Below the pieces are notes generated by a model. It saw only the letters and a list, made by a program, of their open reading frames with translations, was not told the origin of the DNA and ran no database searches. A program made the translations under genes and the position numbers. From Kayfunavirus PDP351P3, in the sequence record OZ035732.1: a stretch of 39,050 bases of DNA. The stretch is one strand, 5' to 3'. Shown piece by piece: positions 2,946 to 39,050 of the stretch. Each line of letters starts with the position of its first letter. Position 1 is the stretch's first letter.

Positions 2946-3039
2946 CTTAATGAATAACTATGGGTGAAAGCTGCATGAATACGCAGTTAGTAACCTATAG
3001 TTACTACCAGTCTAACCTACTGTTTTACAAGGAGTTTGG

Positions 3040-3062
3040 ACTTAACTATCACTATAGGGAAG
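3040..3062 (+). promoter_or_regulatory. phage RNAP promoter (phiOR-like, downstream of gene 19)
   Basis: ACTTAACTATCACTATA-GGGAAG; matches the 11-member promoter family of this genome; predicted +1 G at 3057. Confidence 0.7.
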
Positions 3063-3241
3063 ACCCCCGGTTACTTATAGTATTACTGTAGTGAATATAC
3101 ATATGCAGACTTTATGCAAGACCTTAGGAGGCAGACTCCGAGTTCTTACCTAAGGCTTGCACCGATGGAAGGAGGGTGATATTAATCATAATCCCTCCAA
3201 TACAGATAGTAAAGACCATAGATACAGGAGGTATGTAGCAT

Positions 3242-5198: not shown

Positions 5199-5274
5199 CT
5201 GCGAGTGATAGACGAGAGGTCATCGACTGATAGGTGGCCTCAAAGATTACCACTTGCATTAAGAGGAGTTAACT

Positions 5275-32320: not shown

Positions 32321-35300
32321 ATGGCGACTCGTGGTATTCGCAATAACAATCCGGGTAACATCCGGGTAAGTAAGGACCAATGGGAAGGAATGACTGGAGA
32401 TGATGGCGCATTCGTCACCTTCGATAGTCCAGAGTCTGGCGTCCGAGCTTTAGGTAAAAACCTGCTGTCCTACGGTCGCCAAGGTTATGACTCCATCGAG
32501 AAGATTATCAACCGATGGGCACCTCCTAACGAGAACGACACTAAGGCTTATATTGACTCAGTGGTGGCTGCAACTGGTATTCCAGCTACCCAGAGTCTCG
32601 ACCTATCGGACCCTGACACCCTGTCTTCTCTGGCACAAGCTATCAGCTTCCATGAGACAGGCTCACGGTACGACCCTGAAGTCTATCAGAAGGGAGTCGC
32701 ACGAGCACTCAATGGCATTAGCCCAAAGACTCCACCAGTAAGCGCTAACGTATTTGACGCACTCACGGAAGGACTCAAGGCTAAACCTAAAGTAGCTCTG
32801 GGCGAGAACCTTCCGACCGCTGCTGGTCTGAACATTGAGGGTCAATCACCTGAAGCTCCCAACGAATCGTTCGGTGAGATGTTCTATAAGGCTACTGGAG
32901 AGACCATGCAGGAGCGAGAGGACCGCTCTACGTGGTTCGGTTTCGGTGCGGCTACAGAAGCTGACGTGAAGAACTCTATGGTAGGCGTGGCTATCCGAGC
33001 TGGCCAGACTGAGGATTCACTGGATGTCATTGGCGATGTGTTCAACCCAACCCGATGGAACAACCATAAGTGGTCTCGTGAGGAGCTGGACCAGATTCGT
33101 AACGCTGGGGTTTTGCCTCAGTATTACGGAGTCATTACTGGTGGCTCTCCTCAGAACCTTACCGAGCTTATTAACTTGGCGCTTGAGAACCAGAAGTTGG
33201 ACCAAGAGAGGGCCAAGGCTGGGACTGGTGCTCAGTTAGCCGCTGGTGTGATTGGAGCTGGTGTGGACCCTCTGACCTACGTTCCTATCGCTGGACAGGT
33301 AGGTAAGGGTGGGAAGCTAATCAACAAGATGTTCACTGTGGCTGCTCAGTCTGGTGCTCTTGCTGGGGCATCCGAGATTGCTCGAACCTCAGTTGCTGGT
33401 GGGGACGCTCATGTGGCTGAAGCTATCCTTGGTGGTGTTCTCTTCGGTGGCGGTATGACTGCTATCGCTGATGGACTAGGTAGAGCCTTAGGCCGCAACA
33501 CTAATGAGTTTGCTGGTCCAGCTACACGTCTGGAAGCTCGTGAGACTGCTCGTAACGTTGATGGTCAGGACCTATCTCGTCTACCTATTCAGGAAGGTGA
33601 GCAGACCTTTAGTCATCAAGGTGTTAAGTTCGCAGACGTTCCGAACGAGCCGGGTAGTGTACGACTGGAAGATGGTTCAATCCTGATTGGTGAGAACCCT
33701 CTGAACCCTAAGACACGTCAAGTCTTTGACGAAGTGATTGAGCCGGAACGTGCCGCTGCTGGTGTGAACCTTGGTGGACTTACCGAGATTGGCCTGAAGC
33801 TGCTTCGGTCTGAGAACCCTGAGATTCGTGGAGTAGCTGCTGACTTAGTGCGTTCACCGACTGGTATGCAGTCTGGGGCCTCAGGTAAAATCGGGACAAC
33901 TGCGTCAGACGTGTTCGAGAGACTTCGTGCTGTGGACCATCGGTTCTACAACGACCTCGACGATGCTGTTACTGAGGCACTCAAGGACCCTTACTTCCAG
34001 ACAGCATTCTGGCGAGACTCTGGCGCATTCCGTCAAGACATCTATCAGCGTGTGTCTATGGCTATCGAAGATGGTAGTGGGAACCTGAAGGCTGAACTGA
34101 CTCCGGGAGAACTGAAAGTCTATGACCTGCTGAAGAACCAGTTCGACGCCAAGCGTGAGATGATGGAGAATCCAGCTATGTTTGGTCGCCCAGACGCTCA
34201 GTCTATCTTTCCGGGTAGTCGCTTCAAGGGAACCTACGTCCCGCATGTGTATAGCAACCAGATGAAGGAGCTGTACATCAAGGAGCTTGGAAGTCCAGAG
34301 GCGTTGCAGGAGGCCATCAAGAAGTCATGGTTGACCAGCTATGCGTCTCGACCTGAAGTCAAGAAACGCGTGGACGAGGCACTTTTAGAGGCTGACCCTA
34401 CTTTGACTCCAGAGGGACTTGCGGCTGCGGTCGATAAGTACGCCAACGATAGGGCTTACGGTATCTCCCATACAGGGCAGTTCGAACGTTCATCCGTAAT
34501 GGAAGAGAACATCAACGGTCTGGTTGGTCTGGAGAACAATAGCTTCCTTGAGGCTCGTAACCTGTTCGATAGCGATATGTCAATCGTCCTGCCTAACGGT
34601 CAGACCTTCAGTGTCAACAACCTGCGTGAGTGGGACATGGACAAGATTGTCCCGGCCTACAACCGTCGAGTTAATGGCGACATTGCTATCATGGCTGGTA
34701 CAGGAAAAACCACGAAGGACATGAAGGACTTGGTTGAGACCATGATGAACAAGGCTGGCGATGACGGTAAGTTGAAAGGTGAGGTATCTACCTTACGTGA
34801 CACCCTGAAGATTCTCACTGGTCGTGCTCGACGTGATGGTGCTGACGATGCAGCCTTCGCTACCGTGATGCGCACAATGACAGACCTAGCGTTCTTCGCT
34901 AAGAATGCCTACATGGGTGTTCAGAACTTGACGGAGATTGGTGGTATGTTGGCTCGCGGCAACGTTCGTGCGCTGCTACATGGAGTCCCTATGTTCCGTG
35001 ACCTAGCCTTCCGTAACAAGAAGGTCGGGGCCTCGGAGATTAAGGACCTGCATAATGTTATCTTCGGTAAAGAATTGGATGACTCAATCCGTCCGTCTAA
35101 ACAGGATGTTATCGACCGTCTGCGCTCTTACAGTGACCTCAGTCGTGGTACAGCTACAGCTCTGGGGACTGCCAAGTATTACACTGGTGAACTTGCAGTA
35201 CGCTCTCCGTTCACTAAAGTCCTCAACGGTACGACCAACTACCTGTTAGATGCTGGACGTCAAGGCTTCCTGTCTGACATCGTGGAACATAGCCTGACTG

Positions 35301-36208
35301 GTAGTAAGCGTAAGTTCGATGACCGCTGGCTGAAGACAGCTGGTATCTCTGACGAGCAGTGGAAGGGCATTAAGTCCCTAATCCGTGAGTCAGTGACTCG
35401 TGGGCCAGACGGGAAGTACACCATCAAGGATAAGAAGGCGTTCAGTCAGGACCCAAGGGCTATGGACCTGTGGCGCATGGGTGACACCATAGCTGACGAA
35501 ACGTTACTCCGTCCTCATAAGCTGTCAAACATGGACGCCAAGGCTTATGGTCCTCTCGCTAAGACTGTCCTTCAGTTTAAGAACTTCGTCATCAAGTCTA
35601 TCAATGGGAGAACCATGCGCACATTCTATAACGCCACCAAGAACAACCGAGCTATTGATGCTGCGCTGTCCACTGTGATGTCTATGGGCCTTGCTGGTAT
35701 CTACTACATGGCTCAGGCACACCTCAAGGCTTACGCTATGCAGGATGGTCGTGACCGTGAGTACCTCAAGCAAGCTCTGGACCCGACGATGATTGGATAT
35801 GCAGCTCTATCACGTAGTTCACATCTTGGTGGCCCACTTGGGGTAGCTAACATTCTGGGTGGCATCGCTGGGTATGAGGACACTAAGATGCTCCGTTCGT
35901 CTATCCTACCTCGTTCGCCTACAGAGAAGCCTGAACGTGCCATCGCGTATGGTGCAGCTACAAGTGACCCTGTGATGAATGTTGTTGGTAACTTCTTGGA
36001 GCAGGTTCCAGCTTTCGGATATGCTGCTAACGTTGGGGCTACGGCTTACAACTTGGCTGGCTACCTCAAGGCTGATACTCGTGTCAACGAGCGTGACTAC
36101 ATGACCGGGATGTATAATACGTTCCGTGAACTGGTTCCGAACGACCCAATTACCCAGAAGCTGTTGCTTGGAACGTTTGAGGAGCAAGGTATCCACATCA
36201 AGGACTAA
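32321..36208 (+). CDS. internal virion protein D (T7 gp16-like core) with non-T7 N-terminal domain
   Basis: 1295 aa; from about residue 200 colinear with recalled T7 gp16 (TRWN.H.W..EELD.IR, GAGVDPL.YVP, LRSPTGMQSGASGK, GTYVPHVY, FLEARNLFDSD, GDIAIM, GKTTK, ILTGRARR, RSPFTK.LNGTTNYLLDA, PRAMDLWR, NNRAIDAALS, LVPNDP.TQ.L); first about 160 aa (MATRGIRNNNPGNIR...) do not resemble the T7 N-terminal SLT domain. Confidence 0.93.
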   Translation: MATRGIRNNNPGNIRVSKDQWEGMTGDDGAFVTFDSPESGVRALGKNLLSYGRQGYDSIEKIINRWAPPNENDTKAYIDSVVAATGIPATQSLDLSDPDTLSSLAQAISFHETGSRYDPEVYQKGVARALNGISPKTPPVSANVFDALTEGLKAKPKVALGENLPTAAGLNIEGQSPEAPNESFGEMFYKATGETMQEREDRSTWFGFGAATEADVKNSMVGVAIRAGQTEDSLDVIGDVFNPTRWNNHKWSREELDQIRNAGVLPQYYGVITGGSPQNLTELINLALENQKLDQERAKAGTGAQLAAGVIGAGVDPLTYVPIAGQVGKGGKLINKMFTVAAQSGALAGASEIARTSVAGGDAHVAEAILGGVLFGGGMTAIADGLGRALGRNTNEFAGPATRLEARETARNVDGQDLSRLPIQEGEQTFSHQGVKFADVPNEPGSVRLEDGSILIGENPLNPKTRQVFDEVIEPERAAAGVNLGGLTEIGLKLLRSENPEIRGVAADLVRSPTGMQSGASGKIGTTASDVFERLRAVDHRFYNDLDDAVTEALKDPYFQTAFWRDSGAFRQDIYQRVSMAIEDGSGNLKAELTPGELKVYDLLKNQFDAKREMMENPAMFGRPDAQSIFPGSRFKGTYVPHVYSNQMKELYIKELGSPEALQEAIKKSWLTSYASRPEVKKRVDEALLEADPTLTPEGLAAAVDKYANDRAYGISHTGQFERSSVMEENINGLVGLENNSFLEARNLFDSDMSIVLPNGQTFSVNNLREWDMDKIVPAYNRRVNGDIAIMAGTGKTTKDMKDLVETMMNKAGDDGKLKGEVSTLRDTLKILTGRARRDGADDAAFATVMRTMTDLAFFAKNAYMGVQNLTEIGGMLARGNVRALLHGVPMFRDLAFRNKKVGASEIKDLHNVIFGKELDDSIRPSKQDVIDRLRSYSDLSRGTATALGTAKYYTGELAVRSPFTKVLNGTTNYLLDAGRQGFLSDIVEHSLTGSKRKFDDRWLKTAGISDEQWKGIKSLIRESVTRGPDGKYTIKDKKAFSQDPRAMDLWRMGDTIADETLLRPHKLSNMDAKAYGPLAKTVLQFKNFVIKSINGRTMRTFYNATKNNRAIDAALSTVMSMGLAGIYYMAQAHLKAYAMQDGRDREYLKQALDPTMIGYAALSRSSHLGGPLGVANILGGIAGYEDTKMLRSSILPRSPTEKPERAIAYGAATSDPVMNVVGNFLEQVPAFGYAANVGATAYNLAGYLKADTRVNERDYMTGMYNTFRELVPNDPITQKLLLGTFEEQGIHIKD

Positions 36209-36226
36209 ACTATCACTATAGGAAAC
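36204..36226 (+). promoter_or_regulatory. phage RNAP promoter (phi17-like)
   Basis: ACTAAACTATCACTATA-GGAAAC; overlaps gp16 stop. Confidence 0.75.
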
Positions 36227-36272
36227 GGGAGGCGCTACCATAGGTCTCCATTTAAATCACAAAGGAGGCATA

Positions 36273-38762
36273 ATGTCCACGATTACACAATTCCCTTCAG
36301 GAAACACTCAGTACAGGATTGAGTTCGACTACCTATCCAGAACGTTTGTTGTTGTTACTCTGGTGAATAGCTCTAACCTTACCCTGAACCGTGTACTGGA
36401 AGTTGGTCGAGATTACCGATTCCTTAATCCAACGATGATTGAGATGTTGGTTGACCAATCAGGTTTCGACATCGTTCGTATTCACCGTCAGACTGGAACT
36501 GACTTAGTGGTAGACTTCAGGAATGGCTCAGTGTTGACAGCTAGTGACCTGACTAATGCAGAGCTTCAGGCTATCCATATTGCAGAAGAAGGTCGAGACC
36601 AAACGGTTGACTTAGCGAAGGAATATGCCGATGCTGCTAGTAGCTCTGCTGGCAACGCTAAGGATAGCGAGGACGAAGCACGCCGAATCGCTGATAGTAT
36701 CAAGACATCTGGTCAAATTGGCTATATTACCCGCCGCTCCTTCGAGAAAGGCTTCAACGTTACAACATGGAACGAGGTCCTGCTATGGGAAGAGGATGGC
36801 GAATATTACCGTTGGGACGGTGACTTTCCTAAAACCGTACCTGCTGGCTCAACTCCTGAAACTTCAGGTGGAGTTGGTTTAGGTGCATGGGTTAGCGTTG
36901 GTGATGCGTCACTTAGAGGGCAAATATCTTCTAAATACGGATTATCAATTATTGGTGGGTTTGAATCAGTAGATGATATGAGATCCTATTCATCAGTTGC
37001 AAGTTTGCCAGACGGCACAAGGGCTTTCTTGTTTAGTTTTTATGCCGGGAAAAGCATTGGTGGAGGTATATTTCAATGGCACAGTAACGCAACAACTGAT
37101 GATGATGGCTTCTCTGTTATTAAACCATCAGCTGTTTCAGGAGCAGGTCGATGGATTAACATTAAACGTGGCAGACTAACCCCGGAAGAATGTGGGTGCG
37201 TACCTAATGACCCATCATTTGACAACGGCGTACCGCTTAATAGATGGGCGTCACAGCAGCATTGTATAGGTTCCGTTGGCGTCTTTTATAAAACAACTGC
37301 TTTAATTCCGTCACCGCCAGCGTACCCACAGTATATAGACGCTAAAGGCATGAGGCTGATGACTACTGTGGCTGACGTAAATGGGGTGGAACTCTCCTCT
37401 GATATGTCTCGACGTATCAATATTGAGGGTCTTGAGTCGTTCGGTGACCCGTCATTAACAGTAACGAATCGCAATAAAGCCAACGGCTTCTATATCGCTG
37501 GCTGTAGGGAAGTAGTCCTAAAAAACATTCGCTGTGAGGGATGGAAAAACGCTGGTGTCTGGTGGTTTGAAGTCAACAATATGACTATCGACGGATTTAT
37601 TGGATGGAGAAATGATTGGGATGGTTCCACACTATTCTCCTCTGGTGGGGATTTAGTTGAATGGACTTCGAGCGACGGGTTGGCGAAATCCTGCAGTATA
37701 ACTAATTTCGCGTGTTTTTCAGATGGCAGCCAAAGCATATCCATAAACTCATTATCTTTTGGGCGAAATGTACTAATCAGTAACGGACGCTGTTTCACGT
37801 ATGACGCTACAGATTTTACACCAAAAACTCGGACTAACATAAAAGCACGACATGGAATCACGATAGGTTACAACTCCAACCAGACGTATGGTGGTGGTGT
37901 TAAAGTTAGTAACGTCATTATCAGAGATAAGGGGTGGACTGGCATTTGCCGCTCTGGTGGTTTAGATGGCGCTGTACGATATCAACCAGCTACCATTTCT
38001 AACGTTTCAGTGTACGATTGCGGTTTTGGTATAAACCAAGACAACATTGGTGCTGGTATTCTGTTTGGTGACGTAGTTGACGGAGACATGATCAACAACT
38101 GTTATGTGGAAGGTTTCGCCAACGCTAATAACGGTGCGTACAAAATTCAGGATTCTGTAGGTACAGGGAAGCTGACAATAGCTAACTGTGTTGATAAAGG
38201 TTCTGCTGGATACGGTGTACACATAGCGACAGAATCGGTTAACGTAATGGTTATCGGCCACAGAAGCATAGAACCAACCGGTGCAGGTATTTTCCTTGAG
38301 GCAAAAGGCGGCGCAACACTATTCCGGTCGCATACTGTTGACGGATGTCGTATTGAGCGTGTGACGGACGGTTACGGAATATTTTTGTCTAACGGCGTAA
38401 TTAGTGCGAATATCAAAAACAATGAAATCCGTGGTACTTCTACGAACTCCACAACAAACTGTGCTATTCGTGTAAACCAAAATGGGCAAAACATAAATAT
38501 CAGAGGAAATCAGATTTACGGTTTTGCATACGGGTTGTGGTACAACACCTATGTGAACACCACAACGGTATTCCCGTGGGGTAACAACCAATTCTTCGGC
38601 TGCATTAACGCACACCGTTTCGCAAGGACGACAGGAACCAGTGTTGCTAAGGTAGAACCTAATTATTACGACGGCGCTACTACAAATCAATTCTCTAATG
38701 GTGGCGTAGGAACGAGTAACGGAACGGAAGAATTTAGAGTTAATGGCACTCCCGTGACCTAA
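36273..38762 (+). CDS. tailspike: T7 gp17-like N-terminal tail-attachment domain fused to a parallel beta-helix (putative polysaccharide depolymerase) module
   Basis: 829 aa; residues 1-150 resemble recalled T7 gp17 N-terminus (EFDYLSR.FVVVTL, DYRF, LVDF.NGS.L.A.DL..A.LQ..H.AEE.RD); remainder has beta-helix-type repeats (NNCYVEGF, NNEIRGTS, IRGNQIYG) and is AT-richer than the rest of the genome. Confidence 0.9.
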   Translation: MSTITQFPSGNTQYRIEFDYLSRTFVVVTLVNSSNLTLNRVLEVGRDYRFLNPTMIEMLVDQSGFDIVRIHRQTGTDLVVDFRNGSVLTASDLTNAELQAIHIAEEGRDQTVDLAKEYADAASSSAGNAKDSEDEARRIADSIKTSGQIGYITRRSFEKGFNVTTWNEVLLWEEDGEYYRWDGDFPKTVPAGSTPETSGGVGLGAWVSVGDASLRGQISSKYGLSIIGGFESVDDMRSYSSVASLPDGTRAFLFSFYAGKSIGGGIFQWHSNATTDDDGFSVIKPSAVSGAGRWINIKRGRLTPEECGCVPNDPSFDNGVPLNRWASQQHCIGSVGVFYKTTALIPSPPAYPQYIDAKGMRLMTTVADVNGVELSSDMSRRINIEGLESFGDPSLTVTNRNKANGFYIAGCREVVLKNIRCEGWKNAGVWWFEVNNMTIDGFIGWRNDWDGSTLFSSGGDLVEWTSSDGLAKSCSITNFACFSDGSQSISINSLSFGRNVLISNGRCFTYDATDFTPKTRTNIKARHGITIGYNSNQTYGGGVKVSNVIIRDKGWTGICRSGGLDGAVRYQPATISNVSVYDCGFGINQDNIGAGILFGDVVDGDMINNCYVEGFANANNGAYKIQDSVGTGKLTIANCVDKGSAGYGVHIATESVNVMVIGHRSIEPTGAGIFLEAKGGATLFRSHTVDGCRIERVTDGYGIFLSNGVISANIKNNEIRGTSTNSTTNCAIRVNQNGQNINIRGNQIYGFAYGLWYNTYVNTTTVFPWGNNQFFGCINAHRFARTTGTSVAKVEPNYYDGATTNQFSNGGVGTSNGTEEFRVNGTPVT

Positions 38763-38792
38763 CAAAACCCCGCTTCGGCGGTGTTGTTTTAT
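38762..38792 (+). terminator. putative hairpin/terminator after tailspike gene
   Basis: ACAAAACCCCGC-TTCG-GCGGTGTTGTTTT: about 12-bp stem with one mismatch, UUCG-type loop, T-rich tail. Confidence 0.4.
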
Positions 38793-38889
38793 CATCAGAA
38801 GGTTGTGGAGGTAGAGGCTAACTACACGCTGACCAACGTATGATAACAACTTTGGGTCATGGACGACCCGCTTTAAACTGGAGGTTTTA

Positions 38890-39050
38890 TGATTGAGTTA
38901 GACTTCAAGAATGAGGTCCTTAAAGCCTCTCCTATCGTCGGGACCGCTGCGGCTGATGGTGCCAGTCGGTTCTTCTTCGGACTCACACTGAACGAATGGT
39001 TCTACGTTGCAGCTATCGCGTACACCGTTGTCCAGATTGGTGTGCTAGTC
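38890..39050 (+). CDS. type II holin (T7 gp17.5-like), 3'-truncated by window end
   Basis: ATG 38890 with GGAGG RBS; MIELDFKNEVLKASPIVGTAAADGASRFFFGLTLNEWFYVAAIAYTVVQIG matches recalled T7 gp17.5 (MLSLDFNNELIKAAPIVGTGVADVSARLFFGLSLNEWFYVAAIAYTVVQIG); no stop within window. Confidence 0.8.

What the first reader, a model, noticed from the sequence alone, without database searches (positions are those of the whole stretch)
36900..38762. Mosaic tailspike: conserved T7-type N-terminal adaptor fused to an AT-rich beta-helix (depolymerase-like) module
The first 150 residues of gp17 match the T7 tail-fiber N-terminal domain that docks onto the tail. From about 36900 the nucleotide composition turns visibly AT-richer, with A/T-ending codons (TTA, AAA, ATA, TCT). 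The protein there carries repeated beta-helix-type motifs (NGRCFTYD, VIIRDKGWTGICRSGG, NNCYVEGF, NNEIRGTS, IRGNQIYGFAYG) typical of tailspike polysaccharide depolymerases. This suggests horizontal acquisition of the receptor-binding and enzymatic module from a lower-GC donor, and that the host receptor is a capsule, O-antigen or exopolysaccharide.
Basis: partly seen in the sequence, partly recalled or inferred. Interest (0 to 1): 0.65.

Follow-up and report, generated by a model that had tools for sequence, protein, structure and literature searches.

The report
Kayfunavirus tailspike with swapped receptor-binding module
This is the tailspike gene of a K1F-like coliphage (very probably PDP351_P3): a genus-conserved tail-attachment part joined to a rare beta-helix receptor-binding cassette shared with five other phage lineages. 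It is an ordinary, already described kind of mosaic, but here it can be tentatively tied to the OgN5/Onovel1 O-antigen of E. coli ST410.

Summary
ORF 36273-38762 encodes an 829-aa tailspike. Residues 1-211 are a T7 gp17-type adaptor plus a PF18668 domain, 93-95% identical in nucleotides across 165 phage records. Residues 212-829 are a different module, found full length in only one other phage record, PDP351_P4.

The compositional claim is only partly right. Codon usage shifts at about 36870 (p~0.03), and an AT3-rich patch spans 36849-37148. Bulk GC and GC3 do not step there; the GC3 drop begins at the start of the gene.

The same module sits behind five other anchors: Kagunavirus-like, N4-like, P22-like, Uetakevirus-like and Agtrevirus. 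All three complete E. coli genomes carrying it in prophages have the Onovel1/OgN5 O-antigen cluster, against 62 of 5426 genomes overall. The probable isolation host is ST410 with an untypeable O-antigen.

The likely receptor is therefore this O-antigen. Published host-range scores show lysis of some O6, K1 and rough strains, which is a caveat. This is a new member of a known kind.

The parts
36273..38762 (+). gene 17 tailspike ORF, 829 aa, directly after gp16 (32321-36208)
36300..36632 (+). T7 gp17-type N-terminal tail-attachment domain (PF03906, aa 10-120)
   Evidence: E 7e-16. T7 gp17 structures 7boz, 8dsp and 8e4g match aa 6-117.
36732..36905 (+). PF18668 Tail_spike_N (TSP1/Gp66-type) domain, aa 154-211. 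It is the last part of the genus-conserved anchor.
   Evidence: E 5e-20; 9vvr_A matches aa 1-225; CBA120 TSP1/3/4 match aa 151-230.
36820..36920 (+). 5' crossover zone (aa ~183-216). Identity to other Kayfunaviruses falls from >0.93 to random, while identity to the Kagunavirus-like RBP rises from ~0.63 to 0.90-1.00.
   Evidence: It corresponds in position to the conserved 44/95-nt anchor-end motif of Pas et al. 2023 (PMC10408124).
36906..38759 (+). exchangeable receptor-binding module (aa 212-829), starting at SLRGQISSKYGLSIIGGFESV
   Evidence: alignments to P22-like, 989-aa, 860-aa, ChubbyThor and 825-aa proteins all begin at aa 211-217. Also.
36849..37148 (+). AT3-rich patch (codons 193-292, GC3 0.22).
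   Evidence: permutation p~0.015. A similar, milder dip over the first 135 RBD codons (GC3 0.31-0.33 against 0.39-0.45 for the rest) is present in five homologous modules checked in other phage contexts.
36906..37247 (+). small alpha/beta neck sub-domain preceding the helix (aa 212-~325)
   Evidence: secondary structure; profile positions 130-234 match the N-terminal parts of K2-2 TSP, Fri1 gp49, CBA120 TSP4 and WceF; phage heyday TSP, 40% identity.
37260..38597 (+). right-handed parallel beta-helix (aa ~330-775)
37605..37664 (+). most conserved block, WRNDWDGSTLFSSGGDLVEW (aa 445-464), with three invariant Asp and a nearly invariant Glu. Candidate active-site loop (inference).
   Evidence: invariant N232, D233, W234, D235, D245 and near-invariant E248 in module numbering. 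for coordinates.
38607..38759 (+). C-terminal beta-strand cap domain (aa ~779-829)
38761..38788 (+). hairpin directly after the stop codon (terminator-like, -9.5 kcal/mol)
   Evidence: position-equivalent GC hairpins sit downstream of the RBP gene in P4, LM33_P1, the Kagunavirus-like contig and the N4-like contig.
38789..38800 (+). TTATCATCAGAA motif marking the 3' border of the cassette. Identity to LM33_P1 returns to 0.98 from 38800.
   Evidence: It occurs once in the window, and at the equivalent place in L001, L005 and L009.

Best explanation
Gene 17 of this Kayfunavirus encodes a single modular tailspike.

Anchor. Residues 1-211 dock the spike on the tail. They comprise a T7 gp17-type N-terminal domain, a helical linker and a PF18668 domain, and are kept at about 94% nucleotide identity across the genus.

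Cassette. Residues 212-829 were brought in by homologous recombination with another coliphage lineage. The cassette is a neck domain, a right-handed parallel beta-helix and a C-terminal cap. Its closest non-Kayfunavirus relatives are RBPs that also carry PF18668: a 768-aa protein on a short, unclassified contig (93% aa) and a Kagunavirus-like RBP (90% aa).

Borders. The 5' crossover lies inside the coding sequence for the end of the shared PF18668 domain (about 36820-36920). The 3' crossover lies at a conserved hairpin plus TTATCATCAGAA motif just after the stop codon (38761-38800).

Function (inferred). The beta-helix binds the host O-antigen, most likely the L-fucose-pathway, O-acetylated OgN5/Onovel1 type carried by some E. 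coli ST410. It probably cleaves that O-antigen as a glycoside hydrolase, letting the phage reach the outer membrane.

Shown here: the architecture, the breakpoints, the sharing of the module across lineages, the beta-helix fold prediction, and the prophage/O-antigen-cluster association.

Inferred: the receptor identity, the enzymatic activity and its class, and the direction of transfer.
For: Architecture:
- Pfam PF03906, PF18668 and PF13229.
- PHROG tail fibre/tailspike families match only the first ~230 aa strongly.
- PDB 9vvr_A matches aa 1-225, and nothing in the PDB matches the C-terminal part by sequence.

Mosaicism:
- 165 phage records share nt 1-~646 of the gene at 93-95%. Only PDP351_P4 shares the rest.
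- By tblastn the C-terminal part finds only P4 (93%) and Agtrevirus ChubbyThor (54%).
- Sliding identity gives sharp 5' and 3' breakpoints.

Module in other lineages, always joined at aa 211-217:
- P22-like prophages.
- A Kagunavirus-like 42-kb contig.
- An N4-like 77-kb contig with vRNAP.
- Uetakevirus-like prophages.
- An Agtrevirus.

Fold:
- AF2 model with pLDDT 85.2 and pTM 0.85.
- Foldseek top hits are CBA120 TSP2, Fri1 gp49 and K2 depolymerases.

Receptor:
- All 3 complete E. coli genomes with the module in a prophage carry one O-antigen cluster. The prophages are of two types and sit at three different integration sites.
- That cluster is present in 62 of 5426 genomes. Chance of 3 out of 3 is about 1.4e-6.
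- The cluster is >=99.8% identical in strain 19-7, the Onovel1 (OgN5) reference strain of Ba et al. 2024.
- The window length (39050 bp) and genus match PDP351_P3, isolated on E. coli PDP351 (ST410, O non-typeable, H9, no K type listed).
- P3 and P4 score 0 on two ST410 O8 strains.
- Onovel1 is an experimentally supported phage receptor in ST410 for another phage.

Prior description of this exchange mechanism: Pas et al. 2023, PMC10408124.
Against: - In the published matrix PDP351_P3 also scores 3 on T147 (O6:K5), 2 on AN17 (O6:K5) and LF7074 (O45:K1), and 1 on T145, NILS79, NILS82, BE and BL21. OgN5 is therefore not an absolute requirement for lysis, or the spike tolerates other glycans.
- PDP351's O-antigen cluster itself was not available. 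'ONT' in an ST410 strain is compatible with Onovel1 but does not prove it.
- Bulk GC does not step at the junction, so composition alone does not demonstrate transfer or its direction.
- The hairpin is weak on its own (z -1.3).
Confidence: 0.8

Rival explanations
1. The module targets a capsule or another exopolysaccharide (K antigen or colanic acid), not the O-antigen, and acts as a lyase-type capsule depolymerase.
For: - Kayfunavirus K1F itself uses a capsule.
- P3 lyses K5 and K1 strains in the published matrix.
Against: - No capsule type is listed for PDP351.
- P22-like and Uetakevirus-like prophage tailspikes, which carry this module, are classical O-antigen binders (Pas et al. 2023).
- The 3-of-3 association is with an O-antigen cluster.
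- The K5 strain PDP21 and the O6 strain LF31 are not lysed.
- The OgN5 cluster encodes no uronic-acid pathway of its own, which argues against a lyase.
Confidence: 0.12
2. The beta-helix module only binds its glycan, or modifies it (for example by deacetylation), without cleaving the backbone.
For: - No catalytic site was identified.
- The OgN5 cluster has two acetyltransferases.
- The Uetakevirus-like prophages carry an acyltransferase right after the RBP gene, so acetylation status matters for this receptor.
Against: - No esterase (SGNH-type) domain was found.
- Three invariant Asp and a conserved Glu sit in one block that is kept down to 43% identity, as expected of a glycosidase site.
- Most solved O-antigen tailspikes with this fold are endoglycosidases (established knowledge).
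Confidence: 0.2
3. The low GC and odd codon usage are not a trace of transfer. They follow from the amino-acid make-up and relaxed codon selection of tailspike genes, and the gene has been vertically inherited.
For: - The conserved anchor is also low in GC3 (0.43).
- The GC3 change point is at the gene start.
- The RBD is rich in N, I, S, T and G.
- Bulk GC of anchor and RBD does not differ significantly.
Against: - Homology, not composition, shows the transfer: random identity to other Kayfunavirus RBDs, but 90-98% nucleotide identity to a Kagunavirus-like RBP over the same interval, with backbone identity resuming 40 nt after the stop.
- A codon-usage change point at 36870 is significant.
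Confidence: 0.05

Closest known systems
Kayfunavirus tailspikes with a conserved anchor and swapped RBD (K1F endosialidase gp17, LM33_P1 O25b tailspike; scheme of Pas et al. 2023, Virol J 20:174)
   Same: - Same gene position.
- Same ~211-aa anchor at 93-95% nucleotide identity.
- Break at the same place.
- Conserved motif at the anchor end and a terminator-like motif after the gene.
   Different: The RBD is unrelated in sequence to those of K1F, LM33_P1 and all but one other Kayfunavirus record. Its glycan target has not been characterised.
[not shown]
   Same: The RBD is 84-88% identical in amino acids over aa 212-829, with the same junction residue.
   Different: The N-terminus is the P22 head-binding domain (PF09008) instead of the T7 adaptor plus PF18668. 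These are temperate phages. There is no nucleotide similarity at either flank.
Kagunavirus-like siphovirus RBP (741 aa, Logan contig ERR14760773_2621)
   Same: - 90% aa and 90-98% nucleotide identity across the RBD.
- It shares a PF18668 domain before the RBD and the hairpin plus TTATCATCAGAA after it.
   Different: It has a different short N-terminal anchor and a siphovirus genome context.
CBA120 TSP2 and other Ackermannviridae tailspikes (PDB 5w6p, 6w4q); Shigella phage ChubbyThor gp1
   Same: - PF18668-type domain and neck domain.
- ChubbyThor gp1 is 54% identical over the whole RBD.
   Different: CBA120 TSP2 is only 13-20% identical and targets O157. These spikes belong to a branched four-spike complex on a myovirus.
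Cyanophage Pam1 tailspike receptor-binding domain (PDB 7eea)
   Different: 13% identity, an unrelated host, and no functional transfer implied.

Membership tests
T7 gp17-type N-terminal tail-attachment domain (PF03906) | Profile match above the curated cut-off at the N-terminus | tested here: met
   58.7 bits against 25.2, aa 10-120.
T7 gp17-type N-terminal tail-attachment domain (PF03906) | Sequence similarity to solved T7 gp17 N-terminal structures | tested here: met
   8dsp_C, 8e4g_O and 7boz_a, E 1e-15 to 4e-17, aa 6-117.
T7 gp17-type N-terminal tail-attachment domain (PF03906) | Gene sits after the gp16 internal virion protein in a T7-like late operon | tested here: met
   gp16 at 32321-36208, with the holin following.
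T7 gp17-type N-terminal tail-attachment domain (PF03906) | Physical docking on the gp11/gp12 tail | not testable with these tools
   Needs cryo-EM or pull-down.
Kayfunavirus conserved RBP anchor | High nucleotide identity of the first ~640 nt to other members of the genus, with the break at the anchor end | tested here: met
   165 records at 93-95%; break at 36820-36920.
Tail_spike_N (PF18668, TSP1/Gp66 N-terminal domain) | Profile match above the cut-off | tested here: met
   71.7 bits against 25, aa 154-211.
Right-handed parallel beta-helix tailspike / depolymerase (pectin-lyase-like fold) | Beta_helix profile match | tested here: met
   27.9 bits against 25.9 (marginal), aa 607-762. Homologues carry PF13229 and PF27114 Phage_tail_beta.
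Right-handed parallel beta-helix tailspike / depolymerase (pectin-lyase-like fold) | Predicted three-dimensional fold is a parallel beta-helix | tested here: met
   [not shown]
Right-handed parallel beta-helix tailspike / depolymerase (pectin-lyase-like fold) | Homotrimeric assembly | not tested
   Only a monomer was modelled.
Right-handed parallel beta-helix tailspike / depolymerase (pectin-lyase-like fold) | Catalytic acidic residues in a substrate groove | tested here: inconclusive
   invariant D448, D450 and D460 and near-invariant E463 (full-length numbering). They lie in a lower-confidence loop, and no residue-level alignment to a characterised enzyme was obtained.
Right-handed parallel beta-helix tailspike / depolymerase (pectin-lyase-like fold) | Polysaccharide-degrading activity (halo formation, oligosaccharide release) | not testable with these tools
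   Needs an enzyme assay.
O-antigen-serogroup-specific RBD subtype (sense of Pas et al. 2023) | The same RBD subtype (>=30% aa) is found behind different genus-specific anchors | tested here: met
   six lineages at 43-93% aa identity.
O-antigen-serogroup-specific RBD subtype (sense of Pas et al. 2023) | Prophages carrying the RBD reside in strains of one O-antigen genotype | tested here: met
   3 of 3 genomes carry the Onovel1/OgN5 cluster, against a background of 62/5426.
O-antigen-serogroup-specific RBD subtype (sense of Pas et al. 2023) | The phage's host range follows that serogroup | tested here: inconclusive
   no other Onovel1 strain is in the published panel. Two ST410 O8 strains are not lysed, but P3 scores 1-3 on some O6:K5, K1 and rough strains.
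Polysaccharide lyase tailspikes (K5 lyase, K1 lyase type) | Uronic-acid-containing substrate and lyase catalytic residues | tested here: inconclusive
   [not shown]

The most novel reading that the evidence does not exclude
This RBD family would be the tailspike module specific for the OgN5/Onovel1 O-antigen. That is the O-antigen acquired by the globally spreading carbapenem-resistant E. coli ST410 B5/H24RxC clone. The family includes PDP351_P3 and P4, P22-like and Uetakevirus-like prophages, Kagunavirus-like and N4-like phages, and ChubbyThor gp1. If so, it would be the first sequence-defined depolymerase or typing reagent for that serogroup. Its borders (the PF18668-end coding motif and the hairpin plus TTATCATCAGAA) would act as portable recombination sites for cross-family RBD exchange.
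Probability: 0.5. Interest if true: 0.45.

Novelty: new member of a known kind. Interest (0 to 1): 0.3.

Why it matters
Modular tailspikes are the main determinant of host range in these phages. The principle and the exchange motifs are already published, so this case adds an example, not a concept.

Its practical value lies in the RBD subtype. The subtype is rare (1 IMG/VR contig, 0 GTDB species-representative genomes, 3 of 5426 complete E. coli genomes). It has no solved or characterised relative. It can be linked by genome context to the Onovel1/OgN5 O-antigen of a high-risk ST410 lineage. If that link holds, the module is a candidate for serogroup-specific detection, enzymatic O-antigen removal, or retargeting of phages and tailocins against that clone.

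Tried and rejected
- **Bulk GC or GC3 step at 36900.** Rejected. There is no significant GC3 change point within the gene (p 0.45), and anchor and RBD do not differ in GC (p 0.20). The genome-level GC3 drop starts at the gene start.
- **Foreign low-GC donor.** Rejected in favour of exchange among coliphages. The module keeps GC 0.44-0.46 in all close contexts.
- **Sequence search of the PDB for the C-terminal part.** Neither the single sequence nor the profile gave a hit to the beta-helix. The profile mainly picked up P22 head-binding domains present in the alignment, so no catalytic residues could be transferred.
- **Scan of GTDB species-representative genomes.** No relative was found. IMG/VR gave a single contig.
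- **Sigma-70 promoter and terminator consensus scan of 36000-39050.** Nothing above the shuffled expectation, and it missed the post-stop hairpin.
- **Looking for Onovel1 strains in the published host-range panel.** There are none, so the receptor hypothesis could not be tested there.
- **Linking the Onovel1-specific Agtrevirus P-32M-3-Y to this RBD.** Its sequence is not in the collections, and the paper does not assign the responsible spike.
- **LEA_4 Pfam hit at aa 104-132.** Below the cut-off. It reflects the helical, Ala/Asp/Glu-rich linker.
Full report
**What the window is.** The 39,050-bp window is a complete, circularly permuted Kayfunavirus genome (K1F-like, Autographiviridae).
- Its backbone is about 94% identical to AN24_P4, Vec13 and K1F.
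- A supplement of Gaborieau et al. (bioRxiv 10.1101/2023.11.22.567924) lists PDP351_P3 as a Kayfunavirus of exactly 39,050 bp. It was isolated on E. coli PDP351 (phylogroup C, ST410, O non-typeable, H9, R1 core, no K type listed).
- The only other phage record with the full-length tailspike is PDP351_P4 (OZ035749.1), isolated on the same strain.
- I therefore treat the window as PDP351_P3. This is an inference from length, genus and the shared spike.

**Check of the observation.**
- ORF 36273-38762 (+) encodes 829 aa, and all five quoted motifs are present.
- Pfam finds PF03906 (T7 tail-fibre N-terminal domain) at aa 10-120, PF18668 (Tail_spike_N of TSP1/Gp66) at aa 154-211, and PF13229 (Beta_helix) at aa 607-762, just above its cut-off.
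- Solved structures match only the first ~225 aa. 9vvr_A, an 843-aa tail spike protein, matches aa 1-225 very closely. T7 gp17 N-termini match aa 6-117. CBA120 TSP1/3/4 match aa 151-230.
- The conserved part is therefore about 211 aa and two domains, not 150 aa and one.

**Homology breakpoints.**
- Megablast finds 165 phage records that share gene positions 1 to about 646 at 93-95%. Only P4 continues, at 89.8% over the whole gene.
- Against LM33_P1, a Kayfunavirus with another RBD, 60-nt identity is 0.93-1.00 up to 36819. It is 0.72 at 36820, 0.63 at 36880 and random afterwards, and returns to 0.98 from 38800.
- Against a Kagunavirus-like RBP gene (L005) the profile is the mirror image. Identity is about 0.63 until 36879, then 0.90-0.98 as far as 38799, then random.
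- In 10-codon bins the switch lies between aa 181 and 211. There the window is 67-83% identical to both partners.
- At the 3' side the stop codon is followed by a hairpin (38761-38788, -9.5 kcal/mol) and then TTATCATCAGAA (38789-38800).
- That motif occurs once in the window. It lies at the same distance after the RBP gene in P4, LM33_P1 and the Kagunavirus-like contig.
- This agrees in position with the conserved anchor-end and post-gene terminator motifs that Pas et al. 2023 proposed as recombination hotspots for RBD swapping among lytic coliphage genera (PMC10408124).

**Composition.**
- The 1845-bp C-terminal part has GC 0.442, lower than any equally long stretch elsewhere (minimum 0.4515). 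Its GC3 is 0.395, against 0.53-0.62 for most other large genes (0.47 and 0.51 in two).
- Its codon usage, scored against the rest of the genome, lies below every 614-codon window elsewhere.
- Within gene 17 a codon-usage change point falls at codon 200 (window 36870; permutation p~0.03).
- A low-GC3 segment spans codons 193-292 (36849-37148), with GC3 0.22 against 0.43 (p~0.015).
- The remainder of the RBD (GC3 0.42) does not differ from the anchor (0.43). There is no significant GC3 change point within the gene (p 0.45). Bulk GC of anchor and RBD is not significantly different (p 0.20).
- Over gp16 plus gp17 the GC3 change point sits at about codon 39 of gene 17.
- A similar but milder low-GC3 dip at the start of the module (GC3 0.31-0.33 over its first 135 codons) is present in five homologous modules checked in other phages.
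- The RBD is enriched in G, N, I, S, T and C.

**The module elsewhere.**
- A search of 5.8 billion proteins gives only 36 relatives. Pairwise alignments all begin at gp17 aa 211-217, unless the partner also has a PF18668 domain, in which case they start near aa 148.
- Contexts found:
  - 729-aa 'phage tailspike protein' of E. coli and E. fergusonii with a P22 head-binding N-terminus (84-88%), located in P22-like prophages at argW and next to dacD.
  - A 741-aa RBP on a 42-kb Kagunavirus-like contig (90%).
  - An 860-aa RBP on a 77-kb N4-like contig with a virion RNA polymerase (75%).
  - 825-aa RBPs in Uetakevirus-like prophages, followed by an acyltransferase (52%).
  - gp1 of Agtrevirus ChubbyThor (54%).
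- The module's GC is 0.44-0.46 in all contexts with at least 75% identity. Flanks range from 0.455 (Kagunavirus-like) to 0.50 (Kayfunavirus).
- The 'lower-GC donor' is thus most simply another coliphage lineage. Direction is not proven.
- The subtype is rare: no hit in GTDB species representatives and one IMG/VR contig.

**Fold.**
- An AF2 model of aa 216-829, built on 30 sequences, has pLDDT 85.2 and pTM 0.85. It is almost all beta.
- Foldseek against the PDB puts CBA120 TSP2, Acinetobacter Fri1 gp49 and Klebsiella K2 depolymerases first (E 5e-8 to 1e-6).
- The refutation condition 'no beta-helix' is not met.
- The enzyme class is unresolved, because the neighbours include hydrolases, lyases and epimerases.
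- The best-conserved block, WRNDWDGSTLFSSGGDLVEW (aa 445-464), holds three invariant Asp and a nearly invariant Glu across relatives down to 43% identity. I propose it as the active-site loop. This is inference only.

**Receptor.**
- Only 3 of 5426 complete E. coli genomes contain the module.
- Its wzx-wzy-GT segment is present at 99.7% identity or more in 62 of 5426 genomes. These include all three module-bearing genomes.
- The three prophages are of two types at three integration sites, so the acquisitions are independent. The chance of 3 out of 3 is about 1.4e-6.
- One of the 62 is strain 19-7 (CP123017). It is the reference strain in which Ba et al. 2024 describe the O8-to-Onovel1 (OgN5) switch of the ST410 B5/H24RxC clone (PMC10786849).
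- Onovel1 is an experimentally supported phage receptor in ST410 for an Agtrevirus (PMC12753057).
- In the published matrix PDP351 is lysed by P3 and P4 (score 3 each). Two ST410 O8 strains score 0.

**Caveats on the receptor.**
- The panel holds no other Onovel1 strain.
- P3 also scores 3 on T147 and 2 on AN17 (both O6:H1 K5). It scores 2 on LF7074 (O45:K1), and 1 on T145, NILS79, NILS82, BE and BL21.
- P4 scores 2 on BL21 and NILS79.
- The O-antigen assignment is therefore a well-supported hypothesis (about 0.5-0.6), not a result.
- I read only part of the matrix.

**Comparison and verdict.**
- The finding is a correct reading of an ordinary, well-documented architecture: a Kayfunavirus gp17 with a conserved anchor and a horizontally exchanged beta-helix RBD.
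- The genome is already published, and the exchange mechanism has been described.
- New here:
  - the exact borders of the cassette in this phage;
  - the demonstration that this rare RBD subtype is shared by six phage lineages;
  - a specific, testable receptor assignment to OgN5/Onovel1.
- I rate it a new member of a known kind, with interest 0.3.

Noticed in passing
window 38889-39050 joined to 1-33: The holin gene (64 aa, MIELDFKNEV...KGGGKT*) runs over the end of the window and finishes at its start. The small terminase subunit begins at about nt 30. The window is therefore a circularly permuted assembly whose arbitrary start cuts the holin gene.
   Followed up: yes
window 38800-38830 vs L009 (LM33_P1) 5208-5250 and L001 (P4) 3018-3090: LM33_P1 has two copies of an ATCATC(A)GAAGG-like motif separated by about 14 nt, and the window has one. 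After the motif, P4 continues with ~40 nt of non-coding sequence shared with the Kagunavirus-like contig (TCCATCGG...CCTTGTGGGCTTTGTTGTTT). The window returns directly to Kayfunavirus backbone. The 3' crossover points of the two sister phages thus differ, and P4 retains Kagunavirus-like downstream DNA. This hints at exchange between Kagunavirus and Kayfunavirus.
   Followed up: partly
window 36880-37360 and 37360-37540: There is mosaicism inside the RBD. In the first ~480 nt the window is closer to the Kagunavirus-like gene (0.90-0.98) than to its sister phage P4 (0.78-0.93). At 37360-37540 it is closer to P4 (0.78-0.92 against 0.68-0.72). This suggests further recombination within the RBD subtype.
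   Followed up: partly
window 36820-36879 (aa 183-203): This 60-nt stretch is only 0.72 identical to both P4 and LM33_P1, and 0.63 to the Kagunavirus-like gene, although the protein is conserved. It also has the lowest GC3 of the gene. Its source is none of the sequences at hand.
   Followed up: no
window 36906-38759 (protein aa 212-829): The RBD contains 2.4% cysteine (about 15 Cys), against 0.7% in the other large proteins of the phage. Several are conserved in the family (e.g. C92 and C116 in module numbering).
   Followed up: no
published host-range matrix (Gaborieau et al. supplement), columns PDP351_P3 and PDP351_P4: P3 and P4 share the RBD at 93% aa identity, but P3 additionally lyses the O6:K5 strains T147 and AN17 and the K1 strains LF7074 and T145. 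The RBD type alone does not explain this.
   Followed up: partly
L007 12552-13670 and L011 7739-8857: In Uetakevirus-like prophages the divergent variant of this RBD is followed, on the opposite strand, by an acyltransferase (PF01757). Such genes are typical of O-antigen acetylation for superinfection exclusion. This is consistent with an O-antigen receptor.
   Followed up: no
L006 9272-15018: The N4-like contig carries the module in an 860-aa protein. It is flanked by a 239-aa Cap_depo (PF26986) protein and a second 793-aa RBP with PF18668 plus a WcaM-like domain. This is a G7C-type branched two-spike arrangement.
   Followed up: no
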